A DNA stretch of 64,000 nucleotides, taken from NCBI GenBank assembly GCA_018814355.1, contig JAHIZT010000053.1, positions 798-64,797 on the forward strand. The letters run 5' to 3'. The position numbers and the translations under genes were made by a program. The stretch's first letter is position 1; the number at the start of each line of letters is the position of its first letter. Shown one piece after another: positions 33,415 to 62,500 of this stretch. The DNA comes from Thermoplasmatota archaeon (lineage in GTDB: Archaea; Thermoplasmatota; Thermoplasmata; UBA10834). Under the pieces are notes generated by a model. The model ran no database searches. It saw only the letters and a list, made by a program, of their open reading frames with translations, and was not told where the DNA came from.

Positions 33415-35838
33415 TTGATGCCAAACCCCGACGAGCCGGCCGAGAACTCCATTGCATGCCCCATATGCGGCTACCAGTCGCCAAAGGGTGCGACCAGGTG
33501 TGAACACTGCTACACTAGCCTACAGGCCGAAGAGAAGACAACGGGTGCTGGAGAGACCGAACCGGATCGCGGCCAGAACGAAGAGGGCCTTGAGGAACTC
33601 AGACTCGTTCCTGGAGTCGGCGAGGCGAAGGCCGAGACTCTGTATGAGGCTGGATACCGCTCGCTGAAGGACCTGCAGGAAGCTAGCGTCGACGAATTAT
33701 CAGCAGTGAAGGGCATCAGCGAGAAGCAGGCCGCCAAGATAATCAGGGGTGCAAACAGTCTTACGAACCCAAGCGGGGCCTCCCCGCTGGCAAACTGGCT
33801 TTCGGGAGAGGACGAGGGACTCTCCGAATGGCTTTCGGGGGAAGAGAGGGTCCAACCGGAGGCGACGGCAATGAAAGCCGACGCCCCACGGGATAATTCT
33901 CTGGCGAAATGGTTGGCTGGGGAAGAGGAGGATGTGAACGTCTGGCTTGAAGAGACCAGGGCACCTGAACCCGCTCCACAGACCATCGGACCTAACGAGG
34001 TCCTTGCAAGAGAAGCTGAATTGATCCAGCTGCGCGAGACCATGCGAGAGAAGCTTAGCCAGTTCGAATCAGGGGACTTCGACGCGCAGGCGACCATCGA
34101 AGAGCTCGCCAAGGCCAAGGGTGACCTCGAGATAGAGAGGGGCAAGGCTAGGCAGCTCGAAGAGGAACTCGAAAACGTCAAGCGTGGGAGCATTGCGGTC
34201 ATCAAGTTCATCAAGAACCAGCAGGGGTCTGAGATGGACCAGAGCACGCTCACTGACAAGCTGGCATCTGAGATGGCAAACCGGGAGAACCTCGAGCTCA
34301 AGATAATGCAGCTTGAAGAGGTCAATACGACCCTGAAGGAGGAAGTCGAGGCCGGGATTCAGGAGCTTCCTCCAGAGGCACAGGAGCTCAAGCGCAGGGA
34401 GACCGAGCTCGCGGAGATGAAGGCCCAGCTCGAAGCGATGAAGAAGCAGCTCCTGGCTAAGGAAGAGGCTCTGAGTCAGGGCATGCTGTCTGCACCCCCT
34501 GGGACTACGGTGATGATCGATGCAGGATCCGCGCAACGCGCAGAGGAGTCAGCCAGAAGGGAGCAGGAGCTGGCCGCGAGGATTCAGGAGATCGAGGGAA
34601 AGTTGGCCGAGGCGGATGTCCTGGTCAGACAGAAAGATGAGATGCTCAAGATCTCAGGCGGTTCTGCGAAGACCGTCGACAAGGAGGTCATGAGGAAGCT
34701 GGAAGACGCCCAGAGACTCGAGCGCACACTTGCGGTCAGGGATCAGGAGCTTCAGAGGGTAAGGGGGGATCTCAAGGTGAGCACGGAGGACCTCCAGAAA
34801 CTCAAGGAGCCGATGAAGTACAAGGAAGAGGAGATGCTCAGGCGTGAGGAGGACCTCATGTTCCGCGAGCGGCTGCTCCAGGAGGAGCTGAAGAAGGTCA
34901 CCCAGTCCAAGGCCGAGCTGACATCCCATGGCGAGATCGACCTTAAGAAACGCCTAGAAGTGCTCCAGGCAGAGGTCACGGCGAAGGAGGAGTCGATCAG
35001 GAACAAGGAGAAGTACCTGTCCGCCAAGGAGGAGGAGCTCAGGCTCAGGCAGCAGGGCGTGATATCCGACGAGATAGAAAAGCGCGAGCTGGACCGGATG
35101 CTCGAGGTCAAGCAGGAGAAGGTAAAGACGGGCACCGCCAGGCTCGACGACTTGCTGCTAGGTGGTATGCCGTTCGGTGCGAACGTGCTAGTCTACGGTC
35201 CTCCGTTCACTGGCAAGGAAGTGCTGCTCAACGTGTTCATCGCGGAGGGGCTCAAGAAGGGCATACCCGCGATCTGGATCCTGACAGAGAAGTCCCCAAA
35301 GGATGTTCGCGAGGAAATGACTTTCGTGGTCTCCGGATACGAAGAGTACGAGAAACTCGGGCTCGTGAGATATGTTGACGCGTATTCCAGGAGCATGGGA
35401 GATGACTCCCAGGACCCGTATGCAGAGTATGTTGAGTCTCCGACGGACTACGAATCAATCCAGAGAGCCGTGGAGACTGCCGCGAAACCGATGCGGGAGA
35501 AGCACCCGTATTATAGGGTCGGCTTCCGATCCATTTCCACGTTGATAGCGTACCTCGACCCTGGCACAGCGTTCAGGTTCCTGAGCCCTGTTGTAGGCAG
35601 GAGAAAGCGGGACAAGGCAGTTGCTATGTACACCATCGAAAAGGGCGTCCACGGTGAGCAGGAGATCCAGATGATAGGCTCACTGATGGATGGGATGATA
35701 GAGTTCAAGGTCGAGAACCTGAACACCTTCCTGGCGATCAGAGGCATCTGCGACGTTCAGTCGAGGTCTTTCATCAGATACTCCGCAACGAAGGTTGGCG
35801 TCACAATCGGTTCGTTCTCGCTGGACCACATCAGATAG
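33415..35838 (+). CDS. Multidomain protein: N-terminal zinc ribbon, (HhH)2, W-acidic repeats, ~400-aa coiled coil, C-terminal KaiC/RecA-like ATPase domain
   Basis: CPICGYQSPKGATRCEHC; HhH (LVPGVGEAKAETLYEAGY...VKGISEKQAAKII); three WL(S/A)GEE repeats; heptad-rich E/K/L region; C-terminal Walker A-like GPPFTGKE and KaiC-like fold. Confidence 0.6.
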   Translation: MMPNPDEPAENSIACPICGYQSPKGATRCEHCYTSLQAEEKTTGAGETEPDRGQNEEGLEELRLVPGVGEAKAETLYEAGYRSLKDLQEASVDELSAVKGISEKQAAKIIRGANSLTNPSGASPLANWLSGEDEGLSEWLSGEERVQPEATAMKADAPRDNSLAKWLAGEEEDVNVWLEETRAPEPAPQTIGPNEVLAREAELIQLRETMREKLSQFESGDFDAQATIEELAKAKGDLEIERGKARQLEEELENVKRGSIAVIKFIKNQQGSEMDQSTLTDKLASEMANRENLELKIMQLEEVNTTLKEEVEAGIQELPPEAQELKRRETELAEMKAQLEAMKKQLLAKEEALSQGMLSAPPGTTVMIDAGSAQRAEESARREQELAARIQEIEGKLAEADVLVRQKDEMLKISGGSAKTVDKEVMRKLEDAQRLERTLAVRDQELQRVRGDLKVSTEDLQKLKEPMKYKEEEMLRREEDLMFRERLLQEELKKVTQSKAELTSHGEIDLKKRLEVLQAEVTAKEESIRNKEKYLSAKEEELRLRQQGVISDEIEKRELDRMLEVKQEKVKTGTARLDDLLLGGMPFGANVLVYGPPFTGKEVLLNVFIAEGLKKGIPAIWILTEKSPKDVREEMTFVVSGYEEYEKLGLVRYVDAYSRSMGDDSQDPYAEYVESPTDYESIQRAVETAAKPMREKHPYYRVGFRSISTLIAYLDPGTAFRFLSPVVGRRKRDKAVAMYTIEKGVHGEQEIQMIGSLMDGMIEFKVENLNTFLAIRGICDVQSRSFIRYSATKVGVTIGSFSLDHIR

Positions 35839-35856
35839 ATCGGTTGCAGCCAGCTT

Positions 35857-36294
35857 TCACGCGACTTCCATCGAGCGCCCCTTGTCTTTGGCACCTGGCG
35901 CCTTCTGAGGAGGACCACCCTGAATCTGCGGCGGAGGAATAGGTGGCGGAAGTGCCAAGTCCCTGGCGCATATCACCGCGGAGGGCATGCAATTGGCATA
36001 GATGGCCGTCAGGACGGGATTGAACACCTCGCTCGGCAACACGTTCGTCTGAGACCACTGGCTGGCCAGTTGCTTGGCCTCGCCGTCCCAAACGACTCTG
36101 CCCTCGATCTTGATCATTCCAACGCCCATGTAGTTGACAGTGAATCTGAAATCGAATTGGGCATCTCTGTCCGAAATCGCACTAACGCTTGTCACGGCTG
36201 TGTTCTGATCAACCCTGAGATGAGGTATCCTCTCGCCTAGCTTGGAGTACCTCTTGGCATCTATGGAAACGAGTTCGAACGACTTGATGGGCAT
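35857..36294 (-). CDS. Hypothetical protein with Pro-rich C-terminus
   Basis: 145-aa ORF, beta-rich, followed by PPPIPPPQIQGGPPQKAPG. No family call. Confidence 0.3.
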   Translation of the reverse strand: MPIKSFELVSIDAKRYSKLGERIPHLRVDQNTAVTSVSAISDRDAQFDFRFTVNYMGVGMIKIEGRVVWDGEAKQLASQWSQTNVLPSEVFNPVLTAIYANCMPSAVICARDLALPPPIPPPQIQGGPPQKAPGAKDKGRSMEVA

Positions 36295-36756: not shown

Positions 36757-37767
36757 ATGAACTTGTCCCCCCAGCACGCGAGCTATTGTGCAGACTCGAC
36801 CGGCAACCGGATCAAGAAATCACCGCGGTGGGACAACGGCGAGGGCGTGGCCTCCACAATCGGAACAATCATGTCGCTCCTCGTTTTCTTGACGGCCTTT
36901 GGGATGTTCACGAACCAGTTCGTGCCCGTATGGATGAGCGACAACGAGAGCAGCCACATGTCAACGGTCATCCAGCAGTTCACGACGCTCAAGTCGTCCG
37001 TGGACATCAGCATCTCTTACAACTCAAACAGCAGGATAGCACCTACGCCAGTGTTCGTGCCGATCACTTTGAGCTCGGCAGGCATCCCCGTGTTTGCCGC
37101 CCCCACCGCGGGGATACTGCGATACATTCCCGAAGCGATCAATCAGAGGCCTATGTTCAACATCACCTATAGTTACATTTCCCCAACTGGCACGCCGAAC
37201 ACCTTGAGCTCGAGCAACGATGGGCACTCAGGCGGCTCGCTAGACCTCTACTGTCCCAACAGATACTTTGTCGAGCAGCACTTGGTCTACGAATCGGGCG
37301 CAGTGATCCTCAACCAAAGCGATGGTGAATTCATCATTGCCGGGCCGCAGTTCTCAGTCAGGAACGTTGGGACTGCCAGCTCCCCGGAGATTGTGGTAAT
37401 GTTGACCCAGATCTCGCTCCAGGGCCTGAACAAGACCATCGGAGGCACTGGCTCCAAGGGAGTCACTGCGGACCTGCTATATGCGGACACGACGGCATAC
37501 GAGAACAGTGCAGGATCTCAGGTTACCATCACAATCGTCTCGAACCACGGCTATGCATGGTATGAGTACTTCCTGAGCAGGCTGGACGGCACGGCCGACA
37601 TGACAATAGGTAACGGGTTCACCCTGACGAAGGCACTTCTCCCATTCCCCCCATCCCCCAACAGAATGAACAACTACTACGTGGTCACCCTGACAATAGA
37701 CAATGTACATATTCTGGACTACACGCATGCCATCGTGAAGCTCTCGATAGGGGAGCTCGGAGTATAG
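36757..37767 (+). CDS. Putative archaeal pilin-like / archaellum-accessory-like protein with class-III-type N-terminal hydrophobic segment, N-glycosylation-sequon rich
   Basis: Charged leader (NRIKKSPRWDNG) then hydrophobic helix EGVASTIGTIMSLLVFLTAFGMF; beta-rich with many N-x-S/T sequons. Lies directly upstream of the FlaI-family ATPase. Confidence 0.35.
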   Translation: MNLSPQHASYCADSTGNRIKKSPRWDNGEGVASTIGTIMSLLVFLTAFGMFTNQFVPVWMSDNESSHMSTVIQQFTTLKSSVDISISYNSNSRIAPTPVFVPITLSSAGIPVFAAPTAGILRYIPEAINQRPMFNITYSYISPTGTPNTLSSSNDGHSGGSLDLYCPNRYFVEQHLVYESGAVILNQSDGEFIIAGPQFSVRNVGTASSPEIVVMLTQISLQGLNKTIGGTGSKGVTADLLYADTTAYENSAGSQVTITIVSNHGYAWYEYFLSRLDGTADMTIGNGFTLTKALLPFPPSPNRMNNYYVVTLTIDNVHILDYTHAIVKLSIGELGV

Positions 37768-37777
37768 GAGTGATCTC

Positions 37778-39538
37778 ATGGCTGAAGCTCAACCAAAGGT
37801 AAAACACGAAATCGATGTCAAGGCCCCGCCGATGCCACTTGGCGCCAGGATATATCAGGGCTGGGTGGGAGCTGTGAGCAAACTGAAGTCGTCCCCTATC
37901 GAGATCAGGGCTCCGAGAGGCGCGGCCGCACGGAAACGCGACTGGAGCCACGGTAGGGGTTCAGTGTACACCAAGATACCGCCGATCACCGACACCGCCA
38001 TTCAAGAGATCGGGTTCTACAGCGTGGTCGAGCCGTTCAGTTACACAAGAGCGACATACAACAGCACGATCAGCGAGTACATCCTGACCAACATAGAGCC
38101 CACCCTGACCGAGGACGAGGAGGAGCTCCTCAAACTCATCAAGGAGACCCTTGAGAAGACCCTCGAGTACGAATGGGACAAGCTGGCCGTGATGGACAAC
38201 AAGACATTCCTGGAGAGGAGCGTGGACAGTTTCATCAAGTCCAGAGGCATGAGCATCGAGCCGATCTCCAAGGACAAGATCACGTACTTCATCTCGAGGG
38301 ACTTTGTGGGCTACGGGAAGATCGACGCCCTGATGAACGACAAGAACATCGAGGACGTTTCGTGCGATGGCGTGGGAATCCCGCTGTTCGTGTTCCACAA
38401 CAAGTTCGAATCCATCAAGACGAACGTGTCGTTCGAAGACGAGGACGACCTCAACTCGTTCGTGATAAACCTTGGCCAGAGATGCGGCAAACAGCTGTCC
38501 GTCTCGAACCCGATACTGGACGGCACGACACCCGAAGGGCATAGAGTCCAAGCGACATACGCAAGGGAGGTCACGACCAGGGGCGCGTCGTTCACGATAA
38601 GACGGTTCAAGGAGAAGCCCTTCACTCCCGTCGAGCTAATCAAATACGGAACGGCGTCACCCGAGATCGTTGCGTACTTGTGGCTCAGCGTTGAGCACGG
38701 CGAATCCGCAATAATATGTGGTGGGACTGCCAGCGGCAAGACGGCGACACTGAACGCAATGGCCCTATTCATACCGCCAGGCGCCAAGGTCGTCACCATG
38801 GAGGATACGAGGGAGATCAATCTGCCGCATGAGAACTGGATCCCCGGTACGACAAGGTCCGGCGTTGGTGAGCGTGGCCCGGACGGCAAGGCCGCAGGAG
38901 AGATCGACATGTACGACCTCGTCAGGGCGGCGTTGAGGCAGAGGCCAAACTACATCATCGTCGGTGAGGTCAGAGGCAAGGAGACATACACGATGTTCCA
39001 GGCGATGGCGACCGGGCACACGACGTTCTCCACGATGCACGCTGACAGCGTTAAAGGAATGGTCAACAGGCTCGAGAACCCGCCCATCAACTGTCCCAGG
39101 ATACTTCTCACGGCCCTAAGGAACGTCATCATCCAGACCCATGCGAGAGTCGGGATGGGCATGGTCAGGCGGATCAAGCAGCTCATTGAGATCGTCGGTT
39201 TCGAGCCCGAGACGAACGAGCTCATAAGCAACACCGTCTACGAGTGGGACCAGGCGTCTGACAAGTTCATATTCAAAGGCCACAGCTTCCTTTTCGACAA
39301 GATCATGGAGATGAAGAACCTGACCCACGAGGAGCTCACGCAGGAGTTCGAGCGCAGGGTCGACATCGTGAAGTACATGGTCGCGAAGGATATTGCGGAC
39401 CACCGCGAAATATGGGGTCTGATCAGGGAGTATTACAAAGACCCCAAGGCCACCGCGGAGATGGTCCGCAAGGAGCTCCACGGGGCGGCTCCCAGACCCG
39501 CGCAGGTAGTAGTTTCCGGAGGTGAGGCAACTGCCTGA
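37778..39538 (+). CDS. FlaI/ArlI-family type IV filament assembly ATPase (paralog 1)
   Basis: Strong similarity to the archaeal FlaI core: Walker A GGTASGKTATLNA, Walker B/Asp box IIVGEVRGKE, His box TFSTMHAD. Confidence 0.8.
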   Translation: MAEAQPKVKHEIDVKAPPMPLGARIYQGWVGAVSKLKSSPIEIRAPRGAAARKRDWSHGRGSVYTKIPPITDTAIQEIGFYSVVEPFSYTRATYNSTISEYILTNIEPTLTEDEEELLKLIKETLEKTLEYEWDKLAVMDNKTFLERSVDSFIKSRGMSIEPISKDKITYFISRDFVGYGKIDALMNDKNIEDVSCDGVGIPLFVFHNKFESIKTNVSFEDEDDLNSFVINLGQRCGKQLSVSNPILDGTTPEGHRVQATYAREVTTRGASFTIRRFKEKPFTPVELIKYGTASPEIVAYLWLSVEHGESAIICGGTASGKTATLNAMALFIPPGAKVVTMEDTREINLPHENWIPGTTRSGVGERGPDGKAAGEIDMYDLVRAALRQRPNYIIVGEVRGKETYTMFQAMATGHTTFSTMHADSVKGMVNRLENPPINCPRILLTALRNVIIQTHARVGMGMVRRIKQLIEIVGFEPETNELISNTVYEWDQASDKFIFKGHSFLFDKIMEMKNLTHEELTQEFERRVDIVKYMVAKDIADHREIWGLIREYYKDPKATAEMVRKELHGAAPRPAQVVVSGGEATA

Positions 39539-40559
39539 AATATCCGACGTCTTCAAGCAGGTCGAGGTCAAACCTTCTCAGTACCTCAAGACCTCGATCG
39601 CGCAGACGGGCGAGAGGCTCGGCCCGCATGCTGTAAGACTCACGAAGGGCGCTGTTCCCGAGTACATCAAACTCTCGCCGTTCCAAGACCTCGCGTGGAG
39701 GACGATGGGCAAGTACGCCAAGACGAGGACAGCCCAGCTGCAGCAGCTGGATGACTCGCTCCTGAAGGCCCACATGAAGATCAGGCCAGAGGAGTACCTG
39801 GCATATGTGTTGATGGGCACGCTCGTCTCAGCTATCATAGGCGTGGCAATCGGCATAGGCGTCGGTGTTGTCCTGTTCGGCCTCCTGGGCGTGAGCGTGG
39901 TTCTCAGAGTCGTGGTGGCGGCCCTCGCGATTGGCCTGCTACCGATAATGGCATACATGATGTTGCTCGGCTCCCCGCATTCGAAGGCGAAGAGACGCGG
40001 AAGAGACATAGAGAAGAGGATCGCCGCCGCCATGAGCTTCATCTCGGCGATGGCGTCGGCCGATGTCAACATCGATGTCATATTCAAGGAGCTGTCAAGG
40101 CAGAAGGTCTACGGAGAGATAAGCCAGGAGGCCGCGTGGATCACCAGGGACACCGAGCTGCTGGGGTCTGATATCCTTACGGCCATCAAGAAGGCTGCAA
40201 AGAGGTCCCCGTCCTCGAAGTTCCAGGACTTCCTTCAAGGCGTCATCACCACATCGACATCCGGCGGACAGCTGAAGCCGTATTTCCTGCTCAAGGCCGA
40301 GGAGTACCAGAAAGAGAACAAGCTTGCCCTCAAGTCCCAGATGGAGACCCTGGGTATGCTCGCGGAGTCGTTCGTGACCGTCGTCGTCGCGTTCCCCCTG
40401 TTCCTTGTGCTCATCCTGGCGATCATGGCCATCGTCGGCGGGGGAGACCCCCAATTCATGGTCATGATGCTCTATCTGATAGTGCTCGGGATGATCCCTG
40501 TGTCACAGTTCGGTTTCATATTCGTCATCTGGAACATGTCAAAGGAGAGTGCGATGTAG
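39522..40559 (+). CDS. TadC/FlaJ-like membrane protein, N-terminal T2SSF domain (ends at in-frame TAG)
   Basis: TM helices flank a cytoplasmic T2SSF-like domain. Ends at TAG 40557-40559, followed immediately in the same frame by ATG 40560. Confidence 0.6.
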   Translation: MRQLPEISDVFKQVEVKPSQYLKTSIAQTGERLGPHAVRLTKGAVPEYIKLSPFQDLAWRTMGKYAKTRTAQLQQLDDSLLKAHMKIRPEEYLAYVLMGTLVSAIIGVAIGIGVGVVLFGLLGVSVVLRVVVAALAIGLLPIMAYMMLLGSPHSKAKRRGRDIEKRIAAAMSFISAMASADVNIDVIFKELSRQKVYGEISQEAAWITRDTELLGSDILTAIKKAAKRSPSSKFQDFLQGVITTSTSGGQLKPYFLLKAEEYQKENKLALKSQMETLGMLAESFVTVVVAFPLFLVLILAIMAIVGGGDPQFMVMMLYLIVLGMIPVSQFGFIFVIWNMSKESAM

Positions 40560-41492
40560 ATGCCGCCTCAGAAAGCCATGAATGAGCAGGAGAGGGAGAA
40601 AGCCCTCAAACGGATACTGGCAACTGACAAGGTGGACCTGACGAAGACCCTCCTGGGCGCTTCGATGGGTGTGGCCGCGCTGTTCATATTCATGGCAATC
40701 GTGGACAACATGGGAAGCCTGAAACTCCCACTAGACCCGATCGACTGGATCATCTTCGCAATCGCGGCGATCATCGGCCCGTACGGATTCTACGCGACCA
40801 CCAGGGAGAAGCGCGTTAGGGAGATCGAGACGAGGCTGCCTGACTTCCTGAGAGATGTCGCAGAGGCCGGCAGATTCGGCATGACTCTCGCGAACGCAAT
40901 AGTCGTCGCATCGTCCGGAAGGTATGGTCGGCTGACACCAGAGATCACGAGGATGGCCGCGCAGATCGAGTGGGGCGTGCCCGCCTCCGAGGCCATCAGG
41001 CTTTTCTCCGAGAGGGTCAAGACGCCTCTGGTCACAAGAATGGCGTCCATCATCATGAAGGCCAACGACGCAGGCGGCAATGTCGCCGATGTGCTGAGCA
41101 TGGTCTCGCACGACGCAAAGGACACCATCCTGACACAGGAGGAGAGAGGCGTTACGATGCAGACCTACGTCCTGGTCGTATACATCGCCTTCTTCGTGTT
41201 CATCGCCACCATCCTGATCCTGCAGGGCCAGTTCCTTCCGAAGATGGAACAGGCAGGCAAGCAGGTCAGCGAGCAGGCGGAGAAGCAGGGCCTGGGGGAG
41301 ATACCGGGTGTGAGCATTCAGGTTGACATCATCCCTACGGTCTCGTTCATCTTCCTGCTGTCTGTGGTCGTACACGCGATAGGTGACGGTCTGCTGGCGG
41401 GAGTCATAGCGAATGGGAGCATACCGATAGGCATGAGGCACAGCTTCATAATGCTGATCGCAGGGTTCGTATCATTGAGGGTCATCGGGTGA
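40560..41492 (+). CDS. TadC/FlaJ-like membrane protein, C-terminal T2SSF domain
   Basis: Second T2SSF-like domain with TM helices. Same reading frame as 39522-40559. Confidence 0.6.
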   Translation: MPPQKAMNEQEREKALKRILATDKVDLTKTLLGASMGVAALFIFMAIVDNMGSLKLPLDPIDWIIFAIAAIIGPYGFYATTREKRVREIETRLPDFLRDVAEAGRFGMTLANAIVVASSGRYGRLTPEITRMAAQIEWGVPASEAIRLFSERVKTPLVTRMASIIMKANDAGGNVADVLSMVSHDAKDTILTQEERGVTMQTYVLVVYIAFFVFIATILILQGQFLPKMEQAGKQVSEQAEKQGLGEIPGVSIQVDIIPTVSFIFLLSVVVHAIGDGLLAGVIANGSIPIGMRHSFIMLIAGFVSLRVIG

Positions 41493-41498
41493 GTAAAG

Positions 41499-53864: not shown

Positions 53865-55847
<1,983 letters not shown>

Positions 55848-57433: not shown

Positions 57434-58342
57434 TCAGAAGAAGAGTCCCAGCGGCATTCGCATGACCATGCCGACCACCAGATAGATGATTCCAGCAGCA
57501 ATGGCTGCCAGAATGCAGGACATCGCGGCCTCGCCTGTCGATATGTCGTTCGCAACGCTGACTGCCTTGCTTGTGACCCAGAGCAGCCAGATCAGTCCGA
57601 TCAATGCTACCACGAGGAGCACCGCTCCTGCTGCGATTGCCTGGTTGAGCTCGTCACTCGTCCAATCCTGGACCCTGGTCAAGTCGAGACCCCTGAAGCC
57701 AGTCGTGAACAGCAAGAGGAGCACCATGCTGAGGAGGACATAGCCTGGATAGGCGTACCCAGTGAGCATCAGGGTGGCGCTACGCTCTCCCCTGCCACCG
57801 AAGACATCCTTCGCCACGAGCGCGGTTGTGACTCCGAAGATCAGGAATGCCAGCAATGACACCATCCAGCTGACGAATCCCTGGAACGCCAGCTCGAACG
57901 CGTCCCCCCTGCTGTAACCGAGCACCTGTTCCATATCTGCAGTCACCAGCAGGCTGATGACTGAGGAGATGATTGAGAACAGGACGACTATGACGAGCGC
58001 CCTCTGCAGGTTGGTAGATCGATATAAAGAGGAGAAGGCCTTTGTCGGAGAGAAGCTGATGCGCAATAGGTCCGAGAAATCCAACCTTGGCGCGTGCTTC
58101 GGCTGCATGTAGAGTCCTGGGTAGTGGCTCATATGAACATGCGGATGTATCGGGGATTGGAAGTCCGCCGGGGGGATCTGAGGAACAAAACGCTCCGGCA
58201 GCTGCTGCTTGATGCTCGTCCCGCATCTCGGGCAGATGGTCACGCCTGTGCCATCCCCCAACGCCTGCAAATATCCCGAAGACTGAAGGCCGCATGACGG
58301 ACACGACATACTGTGGACGTACACCACAGACTCGGGCATCAT
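57434..58342 (-). CDS. Yip1-like multi-pass membrane protein with N-terminal zinc ribbon
   Basis: CPSCG...CPRCG ribbon, then a 5-TM Yip1-domain-like region. Confidence 0.45.
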   Translation of the reverse strand: MMPESVVYVHSMSCPSCGLQSSGYLQALGDGTGVTICPRCGTSIKQQLPERFVPQIPPADFQSPIHPHVHMSHYPGLYMQPKHAPRLDFSDLLRISFSPTKAFSSLYRSTNLQRALVIVVLFSIISSVISLLVTADMEQVLGYSRGDAFELAFQGFVSWMVSLLAFLIFGVTTALVAKDVFGGRGERSATLMLTGYAYPGYVLLSMVLLLLFTTGFRGLDLTRVQDWTSDELNQAIAAGAVLLVVALIGLIWLLWVTSKAVSVANDISTGEAAMSCILAAIAAGIIYLVVGMVMRMPLGLFF

Positions 58343-58632: not shown

Positions 58633-60813
58633 ATGCTGGGGACCCGCCAAATGGTCACCGACCTGCGCATACCCGAAGGAATCGTCGTCCGGACCGCCAA
58701 GGGCGGGTCGGACTCCCTCAAGGGGATTCTCGAGGACCTGAAACAGTACAGTTTCACGGGATATGTCAGGGTGACCCTTCAGAAAGAAATCATGAGCTCA
58801 ATCGGGTACCTGGTGGTCGAGCAGGGCGCGCCGGTGATGGCCGTCTACGAGTTCGAGAAATCGAAACCGAGGGAGCTCAAGAGGATCTACACGGGAGAGA
58901 AGTCGCTAAGGTTCATCCTGGAGGACTCGCAGGATAGGGGTTCCAACATCGAGCTACACAGCAGGGTACCGATAGAGGAGTTCGAGCGGAGGTTCCCTGA
59001 TGCCAGGATCGACGAGGCGCCAGTGCAGGCAAAGGCACCCATCTTGGAAGCCGGGCAGAAGATTGAGGAGGAGGCCGAGGAGGAAGAGACTGCCGATTCT
59101 CAGCGAGGAATAGTCGAGCTCTGGCGCAGGAAGGGATTCAAGGTGGACACTCTCGAGGAGGCGCTCAGGAAAGGCCCTGGGGCGCTCGCGAAGGAGCTCA
59201 CTCAGTTCGAACAGGACGCGCAGAGGCTGAAGCAGTTCGAGATCATGATGAACAACTTCCCAATCCTTGGTCACGAGCAAGAGATAGAGGAGATCAGGTC
59301 GAAGCTAGACGACAGGGCCAAGATCGCGGAGATCGAATCCGACATTGAATTCCTTCAAGAGAAGATCAAGCGCAAGATCCAAAAAAGGAAGACCGTTGAG
59401 GAATCGATCAAGCAGGAGATGGAGAAGAAGAAACGAGAGGAGAAGTCCGCGGACGTATACGATCTGATACTGAAGTACCAGACAGCTCCTGAGGAGGATG
59501 TCGCGAAGAAGTGCCCCAGGTGCGGAGGACCGGTGGATGAAGAGGGGAGATGCCCCAAGTGCAGCGCTGAGGGGGCAGCCGCCGCGGCTCCTGCTTTCGC
59601 GAAGCCCTTGAACACGGAGATGACCTTTGACAACTTCGTCGTGGGTCCTGGGTCGAAGTTCCCAGTGGCCGCGGCCAGTTCAGTGGCCAGCTCCCCGAGC
59701 AAGACCTACAATCCTCTGCTCGTCTTCGGCGGATCCGGCCTTGGAAAGACGCACCTCATTTTCGCCATAGGTAATCACATGAGGAGCAAATCGAAGAGCA
59801 TCAAGATCATGTATGTTCCTGCGGACAAGCTCGTCGAGGCGATCAACACCTCACAGGAGGAGGCGCTAAGAAAGAGGATGAAAGAAGACATGGAGAGCGT
59901 GGACCTGCTCCTCGTCGATGACATGCAGTTCCTCGCAACCAGCGAACGAGCACAGATAGATATCACCCATGTCATAGACCATCTGATCGATTCCAAGAAA
60001 CAGGTCGTTCTCGCGAGCGACCGGCTGCCTTCCCAGATTCCCGGTTTCAGCGACAGGCTGAGCTCCCGCATAATGCTGGGACTCACGACGGACCTGCAGC
60101 CTCCGGACCTGGATACAAGGGTCAAGATCCTGAAGCTCAAGGCACGGGAGAAGAATCTGAAGCTGAGCGACGATATCGTCACTTACATTGCTGAGCGCGT
60201 CACGACCAATGTCAGAGAGCTGGAGAGCACGCTCACGAAGATCGCGGCTTTCTCCACAATAATGAAACTGGACGTGGATCTCAACCTCGTCTCTGACATA
60301 CTCAAGCCGCTGGCACCTGTTCAGGAGACAAGGAAGGAGATCATGAAGGAGGTCAAAGCGAACCCCGGACACTGCTACCTGGTCGAGGAGGAGCGGCCGA
60401 TGTACAGCAACGTGCTCCTCAGCAGGAAGATGGACGAAGGTTATGCTGGCATGGTCATCACGCGCATGAACCCAAAGCGTATAAGGGACGAGTTCAAGGT
60501 GCCTCCCGAGATTCTCTGGCTCACGGACAAGGAGAGTTCTCAAGAGAAGACTGTCGCGCCCTCTCTGGAGATGCTGATCCATGTCATACAGGAGTTCATG
60601 GCGCAGGGGGAGAAGGGAATGATCGTCCTTGACGGAATCCAGTACCTCGTGAGCACGACCAACTTCGAGGCTGTGCTAAGGTTCGTCAGAAGCCTGATAG
60701 ACGAGATCTCCGAGTCGAGCGCCATTCTCGCCATATCCATGAGTCCCGAGACCATGAAGCCCCAGGAAGTCTCGATTCTGGAAAGAGAGATGGAAGTCCT
60801 GAACCTGACCTGA
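58633..60813 (+). CDS. Chimeric protein: N-terminal domain of unknown function, acidic coiled-coil segment, zinc ribbon, bacterial DnaA-type AAA+ domain, C-terminal RecA-like (DUF835-type) domain
   Basis: DnaA domain-III hallmarks in order: TFDNFVVGP, YNPLLVFGGSGLGKTHL, LLLVDDMQFL, VVLASDRLP, RLSSRIMLGL, LQPPDLDTRVKIL, NVRELE. Preceded by CPRCGG...CPKC. No DnaA domain IV. Confidence 0.65.
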   Translation: MLGTRQMVTDLRIPEGIVVRTAKGGSDSLKGILEDLKQYSFTGYVRVTLQKEIMSSIGYLVVEQGAPVMAVYEFEKSKPRELKRIYTGEKSLRFILEDSQDRGSNIELHSRVPIEEFERRFPDARIDEAPVQAKAPILEAGQKIEEEAEEEETADSQRGIVELWRRKGFKVDTLEEALRKGPGALAKELTQFEQDAQRLKQFEIMMNNFPILGHEQEIEEIRSKLDDRAKIAEIESDIEFLQEKIKRKIQKRKTVEESIKQEMEKKKREEKSADVYDLILKYQTAPEEDVAKKCPRCGGPVDEEGRCPKCSAEGAAAAAPAFAKPLNTEMTFDNFVVGPGSKFPVAAASSVASSPSKTYNPLLVFGGSGLGKTHLIFAIGNHMRSKSKSIKIMYVPADKLVEAINTSQEEALRKRMKEDMESVDLLLVDDMQFLATSERAQIDITHVIDHLIDSKKQVVLASDRLPSQIPGFSDRLSSRIMLGLTTDLQPPDLDTRVKILKLKAREKNLKLSDDIVTYIAERVTTNVRELESTLTKIAAFSTIMKLDVDLNLVSDILKPLAPVQETRKEIMKEVKANPGHCYLVEEERPMYSNVLLSRKMDEGYAGMVITRMNPKRIRDEFKVPPEILWLTDKESSQEKTVAPSLEMLIHVIQEFMAQGEKGMIVLDGIQYLVSTTNFEAVLRFVRSLIDEISESSAILAISMSPETMKPQEVSILEREMEVLNLT

Positions 60814-60829
60814 AGAAAGCACCCTCACT

Positions 60830-62500
60830 CTACGCGGGCTTCTTCATCATCTCTTTGAACTCACGCATCTCCTTGAGCGCCTGTGGGTATTCCTCCGATT
60901 TCATGAGGGAGGTCGCCGACTTCAGAACCGTCAGCATCGGCGTGATGTTCACATTCCTGACCTTGGCGTCGATAAGCTCGTCCCTCGCCTTGCGCATCTC
61001 CTCGTTCATGCGGCCTGGTATGGACTTGTTCAGGCTTTCGTTCGCCATCTTGATGCTGATGTCCATTCTGTCGAAGTCCTTGGCTTCCAGGGCCTTGGAC
61101 GCTTCCATCAGAAGCCTCCTAGCGTCCTTGGTGTCAACAATGAATATCTCGCAGTCTGCGATGTAGTTCTTGAGCTGCCCGATCTTCTTCTTCGACTCAT
61201 TGTACCTGCCAGTGATCGGCAGCAGTTCCTTGGCCACCTTCTCGGCATAGACATAAGCGGCCTCGATGTCGCCGGCAGCTCTTGCTCGTGCGACCTCTTG
61301 AATGTAAGTCGTCGGTCTGGATACGTCTCCGCCAAACTCACGAGCGATCTTGATCTCCTCGTTCAGCTTGGTGATTGCATCCGCGAGGTGGGAGTCAATC
61401 TTGCCCATGAGTGCGTTCTTCGACTTCTGCACGAGCTCCACGGCCCTCTCGATCTGCCGCTCCCTGCCAGCAGCCGCGGCCTCGTCTATGAGCTGCTTGC
61501 TCTCGCCTATATCGACTTCCTTCTCACGGGCCAATGCCAGGAGTGGTTTCATCTCGGCGACCATGCGCGCGAGATCTCTACCCTTGTCTTTCGCTGCTGG
61601 TGGAGCGGGAGCCTGTGCAGGGATCTCTTCCTCGTGCTTGATTTCGCGAACTCGGACCTCGGCATGTTTTGGAGCAGAAGACGCAGGGGCAGGCGATGGC
61701 TTCTCGGTCAGAGTCGGCGTCTCTGGACTTGTCTCGGGTTTCGGAGTGGGCTCTGACGCCTTCTTGCCCCATTTGAAGAAACTTTTGAAGCCCTTCTTGT
61801 CCTCGGCTTTCTCCTCTTTCTTCTCGGGCTCGACCGGCTTGGCAGGCTTCTTCGAAGGTGCCTTGACTTCAGCCATAGGCGGTTCGATGTCCTTCTTTGG
61901 GGCGATTGCAGGGGCCTCAGGCTCGACGAACACGGCGCCGCAGCCAGGACAGGATTTGGCGTCCACACTGACAAGAGTATTGCAGGCTGGGCACTGGAAC
62001 ATCTCCACGCCCTCCTCGGCGAACATCACCCCGCATTTGGGGCACTGGGTCGCGGTCGCTTCGATAGAAGTGCCGCACTGTGGGCACTCAAAGGACTCGA
62101 CCTCAGCCACGACTTCCTCATCTTGAATATCAGGAGCTGGTTCGACCTCTTGAATCGGCTCAGGCGTGGGCGCGGGCTTCGGTTCAGGGACAGTACTGAT
62201 GTCGGCGCCAGGGGCACGTGAGAATATCTGCTTCGGAGACTCCACACGGGACGGCGGGGCCGTTTCAGGAGTTCTTTGAACTGGCGGCTTCTCCGAGGGC
62301 TTGGACATCGAGAATATTTCGTCAACGCGCGATTCCACAGAGACCCTAGGCGGAGCTGCTTGCTCAGGAGCCTTCCTGGCGGGCTCGATATCTATGTCGA
62401 ATATGGAAAGATCCGTTCCGCAGAATCCGCACTTCCTAGAGCCAGGCTGAAGGGGCGAATCGCAGATCGGACAGAGTTTGTCCCCGCTAGAATTTGGCAA
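60830..62500 (-). CDS. Triple zinc-ribbon protein with Pro/Lys-rich linker and alpha-helical C-terminal domain
   Basis: CPICDS...CGFCG, CPQCG...CPKCG and CPACN...CPGCG, then a PK-rich low-complexity linker and a ~230 aa helical domain. Confidence 0.45.
   Translation of the reverse strand: MPNSSGDKLCPICDSPLQPGSRKCGFCGTDLSIFDIDIEPARKAPEQAAPPRVSVESRVDEIFSMSKPSEKPPVQRTPETAPPSRVESPKQIFSRAPGADISTVPEPKPAPTPEPIQEVEPAPDIQDEEVVAEVESFECPQCGTSIEATATQCPKCGVMFAEEGVEMFQCPACNTLVSVDAKSCPGCGAVFVEPEAPAIAPKKDIEPPMAEVKAPSKKPAKPVEPEKKEEKAEDKKGFKSFFKWGKKASEPTPKPETSPETPTLTEKPSPAPASSAPKHAEVRVREIKHEEEIPAQAPAPPAAKDKGRDLARMVAEMKPLLALAREKEVDIGESKQLIDEAAAAGRERQIERAVELVQKSKNALMGKIDSHLADAITKLNEEIKIAREFGGDVSRPTTYIQEVARARAAGDIEAAYVYAEKVAKELLPITGRYNESKKKIGQLKNYIADCEIFIVDTKDARRLLMEASKALEAKDFDRMDISIKMANESLNKSIPGRMNEEMRKARDELIDAKVRNVNITPMLTVLKSATSLMKSEEYPQALKEMREFKEMMKKPA

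What the first reader, a model, noticed from the sequence alone, without database searches (positions are those of the whole stretch)
33415..62500. Recurrent zinc-ribbon / coiled-coil / KaiC-RecA-like architecture across at least six neighbouring genes
Within ~29 kb, CxxC-(9-17)-CxxC ribbons occur in the protein at 33415 (also HhH, coiled coil and KaiC-like), the tail of the giant protein at 43945, the coiled-coil protein at 49263 (two ribbons), the Yip1 membrane protein at 57434, the DnaA-like chimera at 58633 (also DUF835-type RecA-like) and the triple-ribbon protein at 60830. A stand-alone KaiC-like ATPase sits at 50394. Shared Lys/Pro-rich linkers and W-acidic motifs suggest a family of interacting modular proteins. 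They could form a cytoskeletal, signalling or secretion-associated network built from double-zinc-ribbon and degenerate RecA/KaiC domains. This density is far above what chance would give.
Basis: inference. Interest (0 to 1): 0.7.

Follow-up and report, generated by a model that had tools for sequence, protein, structure and literature searches.

The report
Zinc-ribbon, KaiC and pilus gene supercluster
In an uncultured Thermoplasmata archaeon, six zinc-ribbon proteins crowd around a pilus-type machine, a giant surface protein and KaiC/DnaA-type ATPases; this neighbourhood survives rearrangements, so it is probably one cell-surface control system, a new variant of known KaiC/pilus associations.

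Summary
Six of 16 protein genes between 33.4 and 62.5 kb carry CPxCG-type C4 zinc ribbons, against about 2% of other ORF families sampled. The window comes from an uncultured Thermoplasmata lineage.

The genes fall into conserved modules:
- An archaeal type IV pilus-like operon. On one side is a ribbon–HhH–coiled-coil protein with a degenerate KaiC domain. On the other is a giant CARDB surface protein with three ribbons in its cytoplasmic tail. This block is kept as far as Methanomassiliicoccales.
- An active single-domain KaiC next to a coiled-coil/double-ribbon protein.
- A DUF2226-like/coiled-coil/ribbon/DnaA-AAA+/DUF835 protein, convergent with a triple-ribbon helical protein.

The second and third modules stay adjacent in distant genomes that lack the intervening gyrBA and thiC, and despite an inversion. 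Elsewhere the triple-ribbon protein's helical domain is fused to DUF835. Two short motifs are shared only among these proteins.

This argues against pure chance or a lineage habit. Physical interaction and function remain inferred. The likeliest function is a KaiC-centred cytoplasmic scaffold or switch controlling a pilus-type surface machine. KaiC, coiled-coil and zinc-ribbon proteins were already reported at archaeal pilus loci, so I rate it a new variant of a known kind, with moderate interest.

The parts
33415..35838 (+). 'ZHK' protein, 807 aa. Domain order: N-terminal C4 ribbon, HhH_5, four W-L-x-G-acidic repeats, a coiled coil of about 350 aa, and a degenerate KaiC-like domain (DUF7504-like). 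The true start is probably the ATG at 33418.
   Evidence: Pfam. The alignment A1 of 20 orthologues has invariant C15, C18, C29, C32 and W128, W139, W166, W177. 78 loci were found in GTDB genomes.
33457..33510 (+). Single CPxCG zinc ribbon of ZHK (aa 15-32).
   Evidence: Sub-threshold DZR hit of 20.5 bits. Absent from Methanomassiliicoccales orthologues.
33787..33954 (+). Four 'WL-x-G-E/D' tryptophan-acidic repeats (aa 125-180).
   Evidence: Invariant in A1. Two copies are kept in Methanomassiliicoccales orthologues that lack the ribbon and HhH. The same motif occurs in the giant's tail.
35123..35838 (+). Degenerate KaiC/RecA-like domain of ZHK. It has GKE in place of Walker-A GKT, TE in place of the catalytic EE pair, and Arg705 at the Walker-B Asp position.
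   Evidence: Pfam KaiC 66 bits and DUF7504 57 bits. hhalign against the active KaiC family. BLASTP 24% identity.
35857..36294 (-). Conserved 145-aa soluble protein of unknown fold, ending in ...MEVA. It lies next to ZHK in nearly every locus that extends past ZHK.
   Evidence: tblastn hits in nearly all loci that extend past ZHK, including most Methanomassiliicoccales at 39-46% identity. No Pfam or PDB sequence match.
36757..37767 (+). Pilin-like protein, 336 aa. It has one N-terminal TM helix preceded by ...NGEG|VASTIG, which resembles a class III signal peptide.
   Evidence: Weak DUF7289 hit. TM helix 30-48. Conserved in the synteny. The signal-peptide reading rests on my own knowledge.
37778..39538 (+). 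Secretion ATPase 1 (ArlI/PilB-like).
   Evidence: T2SSE 114.5 bits. NCBIfam archaellum FlaI model 420 bits, below its 550 cut-off.
39522..40559 (+). Half-size TadC/ArlJ-like membrane protein 1.
   Evidence: T2SSF 51.6 bits.
40560..41492 (+). Half-size TadC/ArlJ-like membrane protein 2.
   Evidence: T2SSF 60.5 bits.
41499..43208 (+). Secretion ATPase 2 (PilB3-like).
   Evidence: T2SSE 112 bits and PilB3_C. FlaI model 432 bits, below 550.
43945..49206 (-). Giant surface protein, 1753 aa. It has an N-terminal TM helix, an ectodomain with three CARDB domains, a C-terminal TM helix (aa 1493-1511) and a cytoplasmic tail.
   Evidence: Pfam CARDB and DZR. TM prediction. Conserved convergent to the pilus operon in all long loci.
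43948..44673 (-). Cytoplasmic tail of the giant protein. It contains a double ribbon plus a third ribbon (six CxxC with spacing 14, 14, 14, about 80, 14), the helical 'F-D-D-W-L-A-R-E-E-E' motif, a Pro-rich linker and the basic 'RKVVPKKIIK' end.
   Evidence: Alignment of 16 tails. Ribbons, spacing and the WL motif are conserved as far as Methanomassiliicoccaceae and Methanomethylophilaceae. Also present in L171.
49263..50279 (-). 'CCDZR', 338 aa. It has a coiled coil of about 200 aa, two ribbons 'CPxC.T[VM][IV]S.DA[VL]MCYACG' and the C-terminal basic peptide 'PQIFVKKIVKKK'.
   Evidence: Pfam DZR 40.8 bits and Zn_ribbon_3 49.2 bits. Family alignment. Immediately downstream of KaiC in every locus that extends that far.
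50394..51110 (-). Stand-alone single-domain KaiC-like ATPase, 238 aa. Walker A is GPPGSMKT, with the EE pair and the Walker-B Asp all invariant, so it is probably active.
   Evidence: Pfam KaiC 121.6 bits. Alignment A2. 798 homologues found.
57434..58342 (-). N-terminal C4 ribbon plus a five-TM Yip1 membrane protein. Only loosely linked to the rest.
   Evidence: Yip1 46.9 bits. TM helices. No tblastn hit in several otherwise syntenic loci: L089, L134, L135, L137, L142, L151, L155, L161.
58633..60813 (+). 'DnaA835', 726 aa. Domain order: alpha/beta N-domain (weakly DUF2226-like), coiled coil, single ribbon (aa 294-310), intact DnaA-type AAA+ domain III with lid, and DUF835 (a published 'inactivated KaiC' domain). 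It has no DnaA domain IV. The start is probably Met7 (58651).
   Evidence: Pfam. TIGR00362 286.7 bits, below its 343.9 cut-off. AF2 model with pLDDT 74. Foldseek: B. subtilis DnaA domain III, TM 0.93, rmsd 1.9 Å, 40% identity. DUF835 = iKaiC (PMC5847659).
60830..62500 (-). '3ZnR', 556 aa. It has an N-terminal ribbon, a double ribbon, a long Pro/Lys-rich linker and an all-helical repeat domain of about 250 aa. It is convergent with DnaA835.
   Evidence: Pfam DZR 43.9 bits and Zn_ribbon_3 52.5 bits. AF2 model all helical, pLDDT 68. 131 representatives at E<=1e-10. The helical domain is fused to DUF835 in P0504 and P0463.

Best explanation
The flagged genes are parts of one conserved gene supercluster in a Thermoplasmata lineage. 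It encodes a cell-envelope machine and its cytoplasmic control and scaffold layer.

Shown:
1. An archaeal type IV pilus-like core is present: a pilin-like protein, two ArlI/PilB-like ATPases and a split TadC/ArlJ.
2. A giant CARDB surface protein is anchored by a C-terminal TM helix, and its cytoplasmic tail carries three CPxCG ribbons.
3. Five soluble cytoplasmic proteins accompany them: ZHK (ribbon, HhH, WL repeats, coiled coil, dead KaiC domain), an apparently active single-domain KaiC, CCDZR (coiled coil plus two ribbons), DnaA835 (DnaA AAA+ plus DUF835, a dead KaiC domain) and 3ZnR (ribbons plus helical repeats).
4. KaiC–CCDZR and DnaA835–3ZnR are two tight gene pairs. They remain neighbours of each other, and usually of a giant CARDB protein, after rearrangement.

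Inferred mechanism:
- The active KaiC-type ATPase works as a nucleotide- or phosphorylation-dependent switch. The two proteins carrying degenerate KaiC-like domains work with it. This is how ArlH works with ArlI in the archaellum, and how KaiC-like 'hubs' have been proposed to work in archaea.
- The coiled coils provide a dimeric or ring scaffold under the membrane.
- The CPxCG ribbons, the shared 'WLxGEE' peptides (ZHK and giant tail) and the shared basic 'KK[IV][VI]KKK' peptides (giant tail and CCDZR) are docking elements. They bring the surface protein's tail, the pilus ATPases and the switches together.
- The output would be control of assembly or activity of the pilus-like apparatus and its giant adhesin or envelope protein.
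- The ribbons themselves are add-on adaptors. Their number varies between lineages on an otherwise constant protein set.
For: - Domain content.
- Lineage: ZHK orthologues occur in 78 GTDB loci named Thermoplasmata, Thermoplasmatota or Methanomassiliicoccales.
- The block ZHK–s145–pilin-like–ATPase–TadC–TadC–ATPase–giant is kept in all long loci, as far as Methanomassiliicoccaceae and Methanomethylophilaceae. There the neighbouring hdrA is absent.
- The giant's tail ribbons, their spacing and the WL motif are conserved over the same range.
- The window clade has 3ZnR> <DnaA835 ... gyrB gyrA KaiC CCDZR giant <pilus operon.
- Distant genomes have DnaA835> <3ZnR KaiC> CCDZR> directly adjacent with no gyrBA or thiC. 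These are L090, L167, L168, L171 and L173, with GC 49-70%, KaiC 68-70% identity and DnaA835 32-35%.
  - In L171 the giant and the pilus ATPase/TadC follow.
  - In L173 two giant CARDB proteins with archaeal Pilin_N signal peptides follow.
- L172 keeps only KaiC–CCDZR.
- Fusion evidence: P0504 and P0463 join the 3ZnR-type helical domain to DUF835.
- Motif exclusivity: among 306 ORF families, the WL-acidic motif occurs only in ZHK and the giant, and the basic tail only in the giant and CCDZR.
- KaiC has intact catalytic motifs. The ZHK domain is degenerate. DUF835 is published as an inactivated KaiC.
- Precedents: KaiC-family ATPases, S-layer-like C-terminally anchored proteins, Zn-ribbon proteins and a coiled-coil regulator are reported at archaeal T4P loci (PMC4858521). 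CPxCG ribbons act as protein- and membrane-tethering modules in CdpC (bioRxiv 10.64898/2026.07.16.738847).
Against: - No direct evidence of any protein–protein contact, co-expression or phenotype.
- Housekeeping genes (lhr, ftsJ, AIRS, DUF531) are as syntenic as the system genes around ZHK. That part of the conservation could therefore be inertia.
- ZHK is separated from the pilus operon by an opposite-strand gene and a tRNA-Phe gene, so it is not co-transcribed with it.
- In L090 and L172 no giant protein or pilus genes lie near KaiC–CCDZR within the 10 kb seen.
- The short motifs were defined after seeing them.
- The background ribbon frequency comes from a limited, partly redundant sample, not from a whole genome.
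- It is unknown whether Methanomassiliicoccales have the KaiC, CCDZR, DnaA835 and 3ZnR genes, because the fetched flanks end inside the giant gene.
Confidence: 0.5

Rival explanations
1. Cell-division or cell-cycle/chromosome module. The KaiC–CCDZR and DnaA835–3ZnR quartet would be a cytoplasmic cell-cycle device. It would combine multi-zinc-ribbon tethers of the CdpC kind, an ATP-switch AAA+ of the DnaA type and a KaiC timer. On this view its adjacency to the pilus and giant-protein genes is secondary.
For: - CdpC of Haloferax uses two CPxCG ribbons to anchor FtsZ1 to the membrane. Remote multi-ribbon relatives are reported in all Thermoplasmatota classes.
- A PRC-barrel gene, the CdpB kind of domain, lies directly upstream of DnaA835 in L090 and L173.
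- DnaA835 has an intact DnaA domain III, 40% identical to that of B. subtilis.
- gyrB and gyrA lie between the pairs in the window clade.
- ZHK has a RadA-like HhH DNA-binding module.
- A Cdc6 gene lies 9 kb from KaiC in L172.
- The quartet or the pair occurs without pilus genes nearby in L090 and L172.
Against: - No Pfam DUF7093 (CdpC) hit in any of the window proteins at E<=0.01.
- No ftsZ, sepF or cdv gene was found among the window proteins scanned.
- The PRC neighbour appears in only two loci, whose shared upstream genes suggest they are related.
- gyrBA is absent between the pairs in five distant loci, so the gyrase link is not conserved.
- KaiC–CCDZR is followed by a giant CARDB surface protein in three different arrangements.
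- DnaA835 lacks the DNA-binding domain IV.
Confidence: 0.2
2. Lineage habit plus inertia. CPxCG ribbons are promiscuous add-on domains that this lineage attaches to many proteins. On this view the local density is a coincidence, preserved only because the whole region is slow to rearrange, and there is no common function.
For: - The ribbons are clearly accessory. They are lost or gained on orthologues: ZHK 0-1, DnaA835 0-1, 3ZnR 2-3, CCDZR 1-2.
- Housekeeping neighbours are equally syntenic.
- Archaea are known to have many small CPxCG proteins.
- The Yip1 ribbon protein, thiC and gyrBA are evidently unrelated passengers.
- No whole-genome count was possible.
Against: - 6 of 16 genes against about 2% elsewhere, with P between 1e-5 and 1e-7.
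- The pairs stay adjacent after an inversion and the loss or gain of 7 kb of intervening genes, at 23-35% protein identity.
- The 3ZnR-helical/DUF835 fusion exists.
- The short motifs are exclusive to the set.
- The giant's triple-ribbon tail is invariant across an order-level or deeper divergence.
Confidence: 0.12
3. DNA uptake or transfer apparatus. The pilus-like machine and the giant surface protein would capture or export DNA. The cytoplasmic HhH/RecA-like (ZHK), DnaA-type AAA+ (ssDNA-binding fold) and ribbon proteins would handle the DNA inside the cell.
For: - The ZHK HhH region matches RadA N-terminal and ComEA-type HhH models.
- The combination of ribbon, HhH and RecA-superfamily domain recalls RadA/Sms proteins (my own knowledge).
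- DnaA domain III binds ssDNA in solved structures that the model matches, such as 3r8f.
- Type IV pilus machines drive competence in bacteria (established knowledge).
Against: - The HhH and the ribbon are missing from Methanomassiliicoccales ZHK orthologues, while the rest of the locus is kept.
- The ZHK RecA-like domain lacks catalytic residues.
- No ComEC-like channel, nuclease or helicase is found in the cluster.
- No PADLOC or mobile-element signal is present.
Confidence: 0.06

Closest known systems
KaiC-like ATPases as regulators of archaeal type IV pili and archaella (ArlH/FlaH with ArlI/ArlJ; KaiC arCOGs at T4P loci, Makarova, Koonin & Albers 2016; the 'KaiC-like signal transduction hubs' proposal of Makarova, Galperin & Koonin 2017)
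   Same: - KaiC-superfamily proteins are encoded beside VirB11/ArlI-type ATPases and TadC/ArlJ-type membrane proteins.
- There is a mix of an apparently active KaiC and inactivated KaiC-like domains (DUF835, DUF7504-like).
- Cytoplasmic coiled-coil and Zn-ribbon accessory proteins, and a large C-terminally anchored surface protein, lie at the same locus.
   Different: - There are no archaellins. The ATPases score below the archaellum FlaI cut-off (420-432 against 550).
- The locus has two ATPases and a split TadC.
- The KaiC-like domain next to the operon is catalytically dead and carries a long coiled coil, WL repeats, HhH and a ribbon.
- A second module (active KaiC, CCDZR, DnaA-AAA+/DUF835, 3ZnR) and a ribbon-bearing cytoplasmic tail on the giant protein appear in none of the text I could read.
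- The 2016 census reported no secretion ATPases in the Methanomassiliicoccus genomes then available.
CdpC (HVO_0399, DUF7093) of Haloferax volcanii, a dual CPxCG zinc-ribbon membrane anchor for FtsZ1
   Same: - Soluble archaeal proteins built from CPxCG-type ribbons separated by long disordered linkers.
- The ribbons serve protein-binding and membrane-tethering roles rather than DNA binding.
- Remote multi-ribbon relatives are reported in Thermoplasmatota.
   Different: - No DUF7093 match in any window protein.
- 3ZnR and CCDZR have a large helical-repeat domain or a coiled coil that CdpC lacks.
- The genomic context here is KaiC, DnaA-AAA+, pilus and giant-protein genes, not division genes.
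Bacterial DnaA / Hda (AAA+ initiator clade)
   Same: - Domain III with its lid is intact: Walker A GLGKTHL, Walker B DD, box VII and sensor II.
- It is 40% identical to B. subtilis DnaA domain III, with TM 0.93.
   Different: - It is archaeal, has no domain I/II or domain IV (HTH), and scores below the DnaA equivalog cut-off (286.7 against 343.9).
- It is flanked by a DUF2226-like N-domain, a coiled coil, a ribbon and a C-terminal DUF835.
- It is conserved next to a multi-ribbon protein and KaiC, so it is unlikely to be a replication initiator.
HP0958 (FlgZ) of Helicobacter pylori and the archaeal coiled-coil T4P protein arCOG07564
   Same: A cytoplasmic coiled coil combined with a Zn ribbon, as an accessory or regulatory subunit of a filament-assembly machine. 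The analogy was drawn in PMC4858521.
   Different: No sequence relationship was detected. CCDZR has two tandem CPxCG ribbons and a conserved basic C-terminal peptide, and it is paired with a KaiC ATPase.

Membership tests
KaiC family (Pfam PF06745), gene 50394 | Pfam model above the gathering score; Walker A Lys-Thr/Ser, catalytic Glu pair and Walker-B Asp present | tested here: met
   121.6 bits against 26.6. GPPGSMKT, TLEET and LDSLG are invariant in 12 orthologues.
Circadian KaiC (TIGR02655 / NF006799), gene 50394 | Double-domain (CI plus CII) protein of about 500 aa, above the equivalog cut-off | tested here: not met
   238 aa with a single domain. 46.6 bits against 546 and 86 bits against 408.
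KaiC family, active ATPase: C-terminal domain of 33415 | Catalytic residues of the P-loop, Glu pair and Walker B | tested here: not met
   The Pfam KaiC fold match is 66 bits. However, GKE replaces GKT, TE replaces EE and Arg705 replaces the Walker-B Asp, all invariant. I therefore file it as a degenerate KaiC-like domain.
DUF835 (Pfam PF05763; published as an inactivated KaiC domain): C-terminus of 58633 | Pfam model above the gathering score | tested here: met
   92.9 bits against 33.1. The iKaiC assignment comes from PMC5847659. Pairwise similarity to the 50394 KaiC was not detectable.
DnaA replication initiator (TIGR00362) | Equivalog score cut-off; domain III AAA+; domain IV DnaA-box-binding HTH | tested here: not met
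   286.7 bits against 343.9, matching profile positions 74-348 of 437 only. Domain III is present (Bac_DnaA 165 bits; TM 0.93 to 8bv3_A). Domain IV is absent and replaced by DUF835.
Double zinc ribbon / zinc_ribbon (Pfam PF12773, PF13248, PF13240): giant tail, 49263, 60830 | Pfam model above the gathering score; C-x2-C ... C-x2-C | tested here: met
   DZR 35.2, 40.8 and 43.9 bits against 27.3. Zn_ribbon_3 reaches up to 52.5 bits against 27.
Double zinc ribbon / zinc_ribbon: 33415, 57434, 58633 | Pfam model above the gathering score | tested here: inconclusive
   The C4 motif is present and invariant. The best hits are sub-threshold: DZR 20.5 and 21.0 bits, and for 57434 Zn_Ribbon_TF 20.1 bits against a cut-off of 29. 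This is as expected for a single half-DZR.
Archaeal type IV pilus / Tad-like secretion system core | VirB11/T2SSE-family ATPase, TadC/T2SSF membrane protein and a pilin with a class III signal peptide | tested here: met
   T2SSE 112-114 bits twice and T2SSF 52-60 bits twice. The pilin criterion is only partly met, by a weak DUF7289 hit, one N-terminal TM helix and an 'EG|VAST' motif. No major pilin was identified in the window.
Archaellum motor (ArlI/FlaI, NF058587) | Equivalog cut-off; presence of archaellins and ArlF/G/H | tested here: not met
   420 and 432 bits against 550. No archaellin or ArlF/G models hit in the window.
CdpC (DUF7093) | Match to the DUF7093 model; NTD ribbon with an amphipathic helix plus an FtsZ1-binding CTD ribbon | tested here: not met
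   No DUF7093 hit among the Pfam results at E<=0.01 for the seven proteins. FtsZ binding is not testable here.
Yip1 (PF04893), gene 57434 | Pfam model above the gathering score; five TM helices | tested here: met
   46.9 bits against 28.6. Five hydrophobic segments.
Known anti-phage defence systems (PADLOC) | Significant match to any PADLOC model | tested here: not met
   Only weak coiled-coil or P-loop noise at 20-26 bits.

The most novel reading that the evidence does not exclude
A deeply conserved Thermoplasmata envelope-to-cytoplasm complex that has not been described. In it, the zinc-ribbon tail of a giant surface protein, a pilus-type motor, and two nucleotide switches are wired together by CPxCG ribbons and two dedicated docking peptides (WLxGEE and PQIFVKKIVKKK). 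The switches are a KaiC ATPase and a bacterial-type DnaA AAA+ domain fused to a dead KaiC domain. The DnaA AAA+ domain would have been recruited to a non-replicative role as an oligomerising switch. The system might couple surface-structure assembly or adhesion to the cell cycle.
Probability: 0.22. Interest if true: 0.75.

Novelty: new variant of a known kind. Interest (0 to 1): 0.5.

Why it matters
If the inference holds, it defines a testable multi-protein system in a widespread but uncultured archaeal lineage, with parts in Methanomassiliicoccales, some of which are cultured.
- It gives candidate partners and outputs for archaeal KaiC-like 'hubs', whose targets are mostly unknown.
- It gives a concrete role for the abundant but enigmatic CPxCG zinc ribbons, as tethering adaptors on a transmembrane giant protein.
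- It provides an example of a bacterial DnaA AAA+ module re-used outside replication.
- The two short peptide motifs and the ribbon tail are specific handles for AF3 or pull-down experiments.

Tried and rejected
- The 2017 mBio 'KaiC hubs' paper (PMC5717392) is not held. I could not check whether the DnaA-DUF835 or ZHK architectures are listed there.
- The three KaiC-like domains are not recent paralogues. Similarity between 50394 and ZHK is only remote (24% over 88 aa; hhalign E = 0.005), and there is none to DUF835.
- The AF2 single-sequence model of the 3ZnR helical domain (pLDDT 68) found no significant fold match in Foldseek/PDB (best E = 0.5). Sequence searches of that domain against PDB found nothing.
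- The 145-aa conserved neighbour had no Pfam or PDB sequence hit, even with a 15-sequence profile.
- The afdb50 fold library was unavailable, so I have no taxonomic survey of DnaA-DUF835 architectures.
- The sigma-70 promoter and intrinsic-terminator scan is not applicable to archaea. A manual reading suggests a separate TATA-like box upstream of each of KaiC, CCDZR and the giant gene, which is unverified.
- Two look-ups meant to extend the control region leftwards found no exact protein.
- The metagenome scan returned mostly close relatives because only the 80 best loci are kept.
- The defence-system hypothesis is rejected.
- ORFs 36261-36578, 43211-43483 and 43568-43876 are rejected as genes. 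The first overlaps tRNA-Phe. The other two are not conserved beyond the same species.
- A literature search for an archaeal DnaA-like protein of this kind found nothing relevant.

Full report
**What is in the sequence.** The region holds 16 credible protein genes and two tRNA genes. The genes, with Pfam and NCBIfam assignments, are:
- 33415-35838 (+), here called ZHK: a C4 ribbon, HhH_5, four tryptophan-acidic repeats, a long coiled coil and a KaiC/DUF7504-like domain.
- 35857-36294 (-): a 145-aa protein of unknown function.
- tRNA-Phe.
- 36757-43208 (+): a pilin-like protein, a T2SSE ATPase, two half-size T2SSF (TadC) proteins and a second T2SSE ATPase with PilB3_C.
- 43945-49206 (-): a 1753-aa protein with three CARDB domains, a C-terminal TM helix and a tail with DZR plus a third ribbon.
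- 49263-50279 (-), CCDZR: a coiled coil plus two ribbons.
- 50394-51110 (-): a single-domain KaiC.
- gyrA, gyrB and thiC.
- 57434-58342 (-): a ribbon plus Yip1.
- An intron-containing tRNA.
- 58633-60813 (+), DnaA835: Bac_DnaA AAA+, an Hda-type lid and DUF835, preceded by a ribbon, a coiled coil and an N-domain with a weak DUF2226 hit.
- 60830-62500 (-), 3ZnR: three ribbons, a Pro/Lys linker and a helical domain.

**Is it more than chance?**
- Ten of the 13 ribbons share the exact C-x2-C-x10-C-x2-C 'CPxCG' form.
- Six of the 16 genes carry one.
- The other 36 ORFs of the window are ordinary metabolic and housekeeping genes. They have one such motif, which is intrinsic to the Lhr helicase. Fisher p = 0.002.
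- I clustered 1444 ORFs of at least 100 aa, from the window plus about 170 related loci, into 306 families. Thirteen are ribbon-positive. Seven of those are the flagged families, counting the divergent L090 copy of 3ZnR separately. One is Lhr and five are singletons.
- That gives a background near 2%, and P(at least 6 of 16) of about 4e-7.
- A paper reports 49 proteins with two CPXCG motifs in Haloferax volcanii. That is about 1% by my estimate of its proteome size, the same order.
- The caveat is that I could not count a whole genome of this lineage.

**Where it comes from.** ZHK orthologues (57-96% identical, all about 800 aa) are annotated only from uncultured Thermoplasmata, Thermoplasmatota or 'Euryarchaeota RBG' MAGs. 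A scan of GTDB species genomes found 78 loci. More distant copies (41-56% over the C-terminal part) occur in Methanomassiliicoccaceae, Methanomethylophilaceae and other Methanomassiliicoccales.

**Conserved neighbourhood 1: the pilus block.**
- In every locus long enough to show it, the order is ZHK, the 145-aa gene, the pilin-like gene, ATPase, TadC, TadC, ATPase, then the convergent giant gene. This holds in Methanomassiliicoccales too.
- Upstream housekeeping genes are also syntenic, which weakens the inference. However, hdrA next to ZHK is present only in the window's clade.
- The giant's cytoplasmic tail is conserved in detail over the whole range. This covers six CxxC with unchanged spacing, a helical segment ending 'F-[ED]-x-W-L-x-[KR]-E-E' and a basic end.
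- ZHK orthologues in Methanomassiliicoccales lack both the ribbon and the HhH. They keep two 'WLxG[ED]' repeats, the coiled coil and the KaiC-like domain. The ribbon is therefore an add-on and the WL repeats are core.

**Conserved neighbourhood 2: two gene pairs.** I anchored on the highly conserved KaiC (67-93% identity) and found several arrangements.
- The window's clade has 3ZnR> <DnaA835 (Yip1) <thiC gyrB> gyrA> KaiC> CCDZR> giant> <pilus operon.
- L090, L167, L168, L171 and L173 have GC of 49-70%. Their identities to the window proteins are 68-70% for KaiC, 32-35% for DnaA835, 23-32% for 3ZnR and about 28% for CCDZR. All have DnaA835> <3ZnR KaiC> CCDZR> directly adjacent, with no gyrase, thiC or Yip1, and with the DnaA835/3ZnR unit inverted relative to KaiC.
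- In L171 the giant with its ribbon tail follows, then an MFS gene, then the pilus ATPase and TadC.
- In L173 the pair is followed by 2323-aa and 1861-aa CARDB proteins that start with archaeal Pilin_N class III signal peptides and have no ribbon tail.
- L172 keeps only KaiC–CCDZR.
- Adjacency that survives an inversion and a 7-kb indel at this divergence is much stronger evidence than plain synteny.
- The Yip1 gene gives no match in several syntenic loci, so I treat it as a passenger.

**Further links between the proteins.**
- A full HMMER search with 3ZnR found 131 cluster representatives at E<=1e-10, and most of the top-scoring hits cover the C-terminal helical domain. Two of them, P0504 and P0463, fuse that helical domain to a C-terminal DUF835, which is the domain carried by its neighbour DnaA835. 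P0463 also has N-terminal ribbons. This is a classic fusion link.
- Among the 306 families, the motif W-[LI]-x-x-acidic3 occurs only in ZHK and the giant. The basic motif [RK][RK][IVL][IVL]..[RK][RK]..[IVL][IVL] occurs only in the giant ('RKVVPKKIIK') and at the CCDZR C-terminus ('PQIFVKKIVKKK', conserved through the family). I defined these motifs after seeing them, so they are suggestive rather than proof.

**State of the ATPase domains.**
- The stand-alone KaiC keeps GPPGSMKT, the Glu-Glu pair and the Walker-B Asp.
- The ZHK domain has GKE, TE and Arg at those positions, all invariant.
- DUF835 is published as an inactivated KaiC.
- The three domains are only remotely related to one another, so they are not recent duplicates.
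- DnaA835 has all the DnaA domain III motifs. Its AF2 model (pLDDT 74) superposes on B. subtilis DnaA domain III at TM 0.93, 1.9 Å and 40% identity. Domain IV is missing and the DnaA equivalog cut-off is not reached.

**Mechanism.**
- Shown: the domain inventory, the membrane topology, the conservation, the linkage, the fusion and the motif sharing.
- Inferred: a sub-membrane complex. In it the active KaiC and the two proteins with dead KaiC-like domains act as a nucleotide- or phosphorylation-dependent switch. Coiled coils supply the scaffold. Ribbons and the two peptide motifs dock the giant protein's tail, the scaffolds and probably the pilus ATPases. The output is assembly or activity of the pilus-type apparatus and its giant adhesin or envelope protein.
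- This follows how ArlH works with ArlI. It also follows the published association of KaiC ATPases, coiled-coil regulators, Zn-ribbon proteins and S-layer-like anchored proteins with archaeal T4P loci, and the demonstrated tethering role of CPxCG ribbons in CdpC.
- My confidence is about 0.5.

**Rivals.**
- A cell-division or cell-cycle role for the KaiC/CCDZR/DnaA835/3ZnR quartet. Points for: the CdpC precedent, a PRC-barrel neighbour in L090 and L173, the DnaA module, and gyrase adjacency in one clade. Points against: no DUF7093 match, no division genes nearby, non-conserved gyrase linkage, and repeated linkage to giant CARDB proteins.
- Lineage habit plus inertia. The accessory nature of the ribbons and the syntenic housekeeping genes favour it. 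The statistics, the rearrangement-proof linkage, the fusion and the exclusive motifs count against it.
- A DNA uptake or transfer machine. The HhH and DnaA ssDNA-binding folds favour it. Loss of the HhH in Methanomassiliicoccales and the absence of channel or nuclease genes count against it.
- Defence systems are excluded.

**Comparison with what is known, and novelty.**
- Each ingredient has a precedent. KaiC next to T4P, DUF835 as iKaiC, coiled-coil and Zn-ribbon accessory proteins, and C-terminally anchored large surface proteins are all reported.
- I found the following in none of the text I could search:
  - this particular supercluster;
  - a triple-ribbon cytoplasmic tail on the giant protein, conserved from this lineage to Methanomassiliicoccales;
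  - the KaiC–CCDZR and DnaA-AAA+/DUF835–3ZnR pairs;
  - the two shared peptides.
- The 2016 census states that the Methanomassiliicoccus genomes then available lacked secretion ATPases.
- The key 2017 KaiC paper could not be read, so part of this may already be catalogued as arCOGs.
- Verdict: new variant of a known kind, interest about 0.5.

Noticed in passing
window 58633-60813 with gyrB/gyrA at 51236-55793: An archaeal protein carries a bacterial-type DnaA domain III, 40% identical to that of B. subtilis. It lies about 3 kb from gyrB-gyrA, which recalls the bacterial dnaA...gyrB-gyrA origin region. In five distant loci the gyrase genes are not nearby, so the link is probably clade-specific. 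Co-acquisition from bacteria was not tested.
   Followed up: partly
window 58410-58510 (-): Rfam calls a 101-nt tRNA (56.5 bits) that ARAGORN misses. It is probably an intron-containing tRNA, lying between the Yip1 gene and DnaA835.
   Followed up: no
window 36408-36482 (-): tRNA-Phe lies between the 145-aa gene and the pilin-like gene. The 105-aa ORF at 36261-36578 is therefore spurious, and ZHK cannot be co-transcribed with the pilus operon.
   Followed up: yes
window 35857-36294 (-): A 145-aa soluble protein sits next to ZHK in nearly every locus that extends past ZHK, at 39-46% identity in most Methanomassiliicoccales. It has an invariant LPPPxPxP stretch and a C-terminal ...[MV]EVA. It has no Pfam or PDB relative and is likely a further component of the system.
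   Followed up: partly
L090 5383-5778 and L173 5542-5943: A stand-alone PRC-barrel gene lies directly upstream of, and divergent from, the DnaA-DUF835 gene. This is the domain of the archaeal division proteins CdpB1-3. It is preceded by an OB-fold Ssb-like gene.
   Followed up: partly
L173 12033-20723: Two giant CARDB proteins (2323 aa, and 1861 aa as called, the latter running off the locus end) have archaeal type IV pilin N-termini (KG|VSEIVGTILMLSITVV). They follow KaiC–CCDZR in place of the ribbon-tailed giant. These are very large pilin-like surface proteins.
   Followed up: partly
P0504 (806 aa), P0463 (740 aa): In another, Lys/Glu-rich lineage the 3ZnR-type helical repeat domain is fused to DUF835. 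P0463 also has two N-terminal ribbons.
   Followed up: partly
window 30694-33141 (-): An HdrA-like flavoprotein with Fe-S clusters is fused to an MvhD/FlpD domain, immediately upstream of ZHK. It is present at this position in the window's clade but not in the Methanomassiliicoccales loci.
   Followed up: no
window 43209-43944: A 737-bp gap lies between the convergent pilus ATPase and giant genes. Its two ORFs (90 and 102 aa) are conserved only within the same species. L171 has an MFS transporter gene at this position.
   Followed up: partly
L059-L080 (Methanomassiliicoccales MAGs): These MAGs carry the two-ATPase/two-TadC locus. The 2016 archaeal T4P census reported no secretion ATPases in the Methanomassiliicoccus genomes then available, so the order is heterogeneous for this system.
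   Followed up: no
window 49206-49220: A TATA-like 'TTTTTATA' overlaps the annotated ATG of the giant gene. The real start may be Met20, 57 nt downstream. Similar AT-rich boxes precede KaiC (about 51170) and CCDZR (about 50345), which suggests separate promoters.
   Followed up: no
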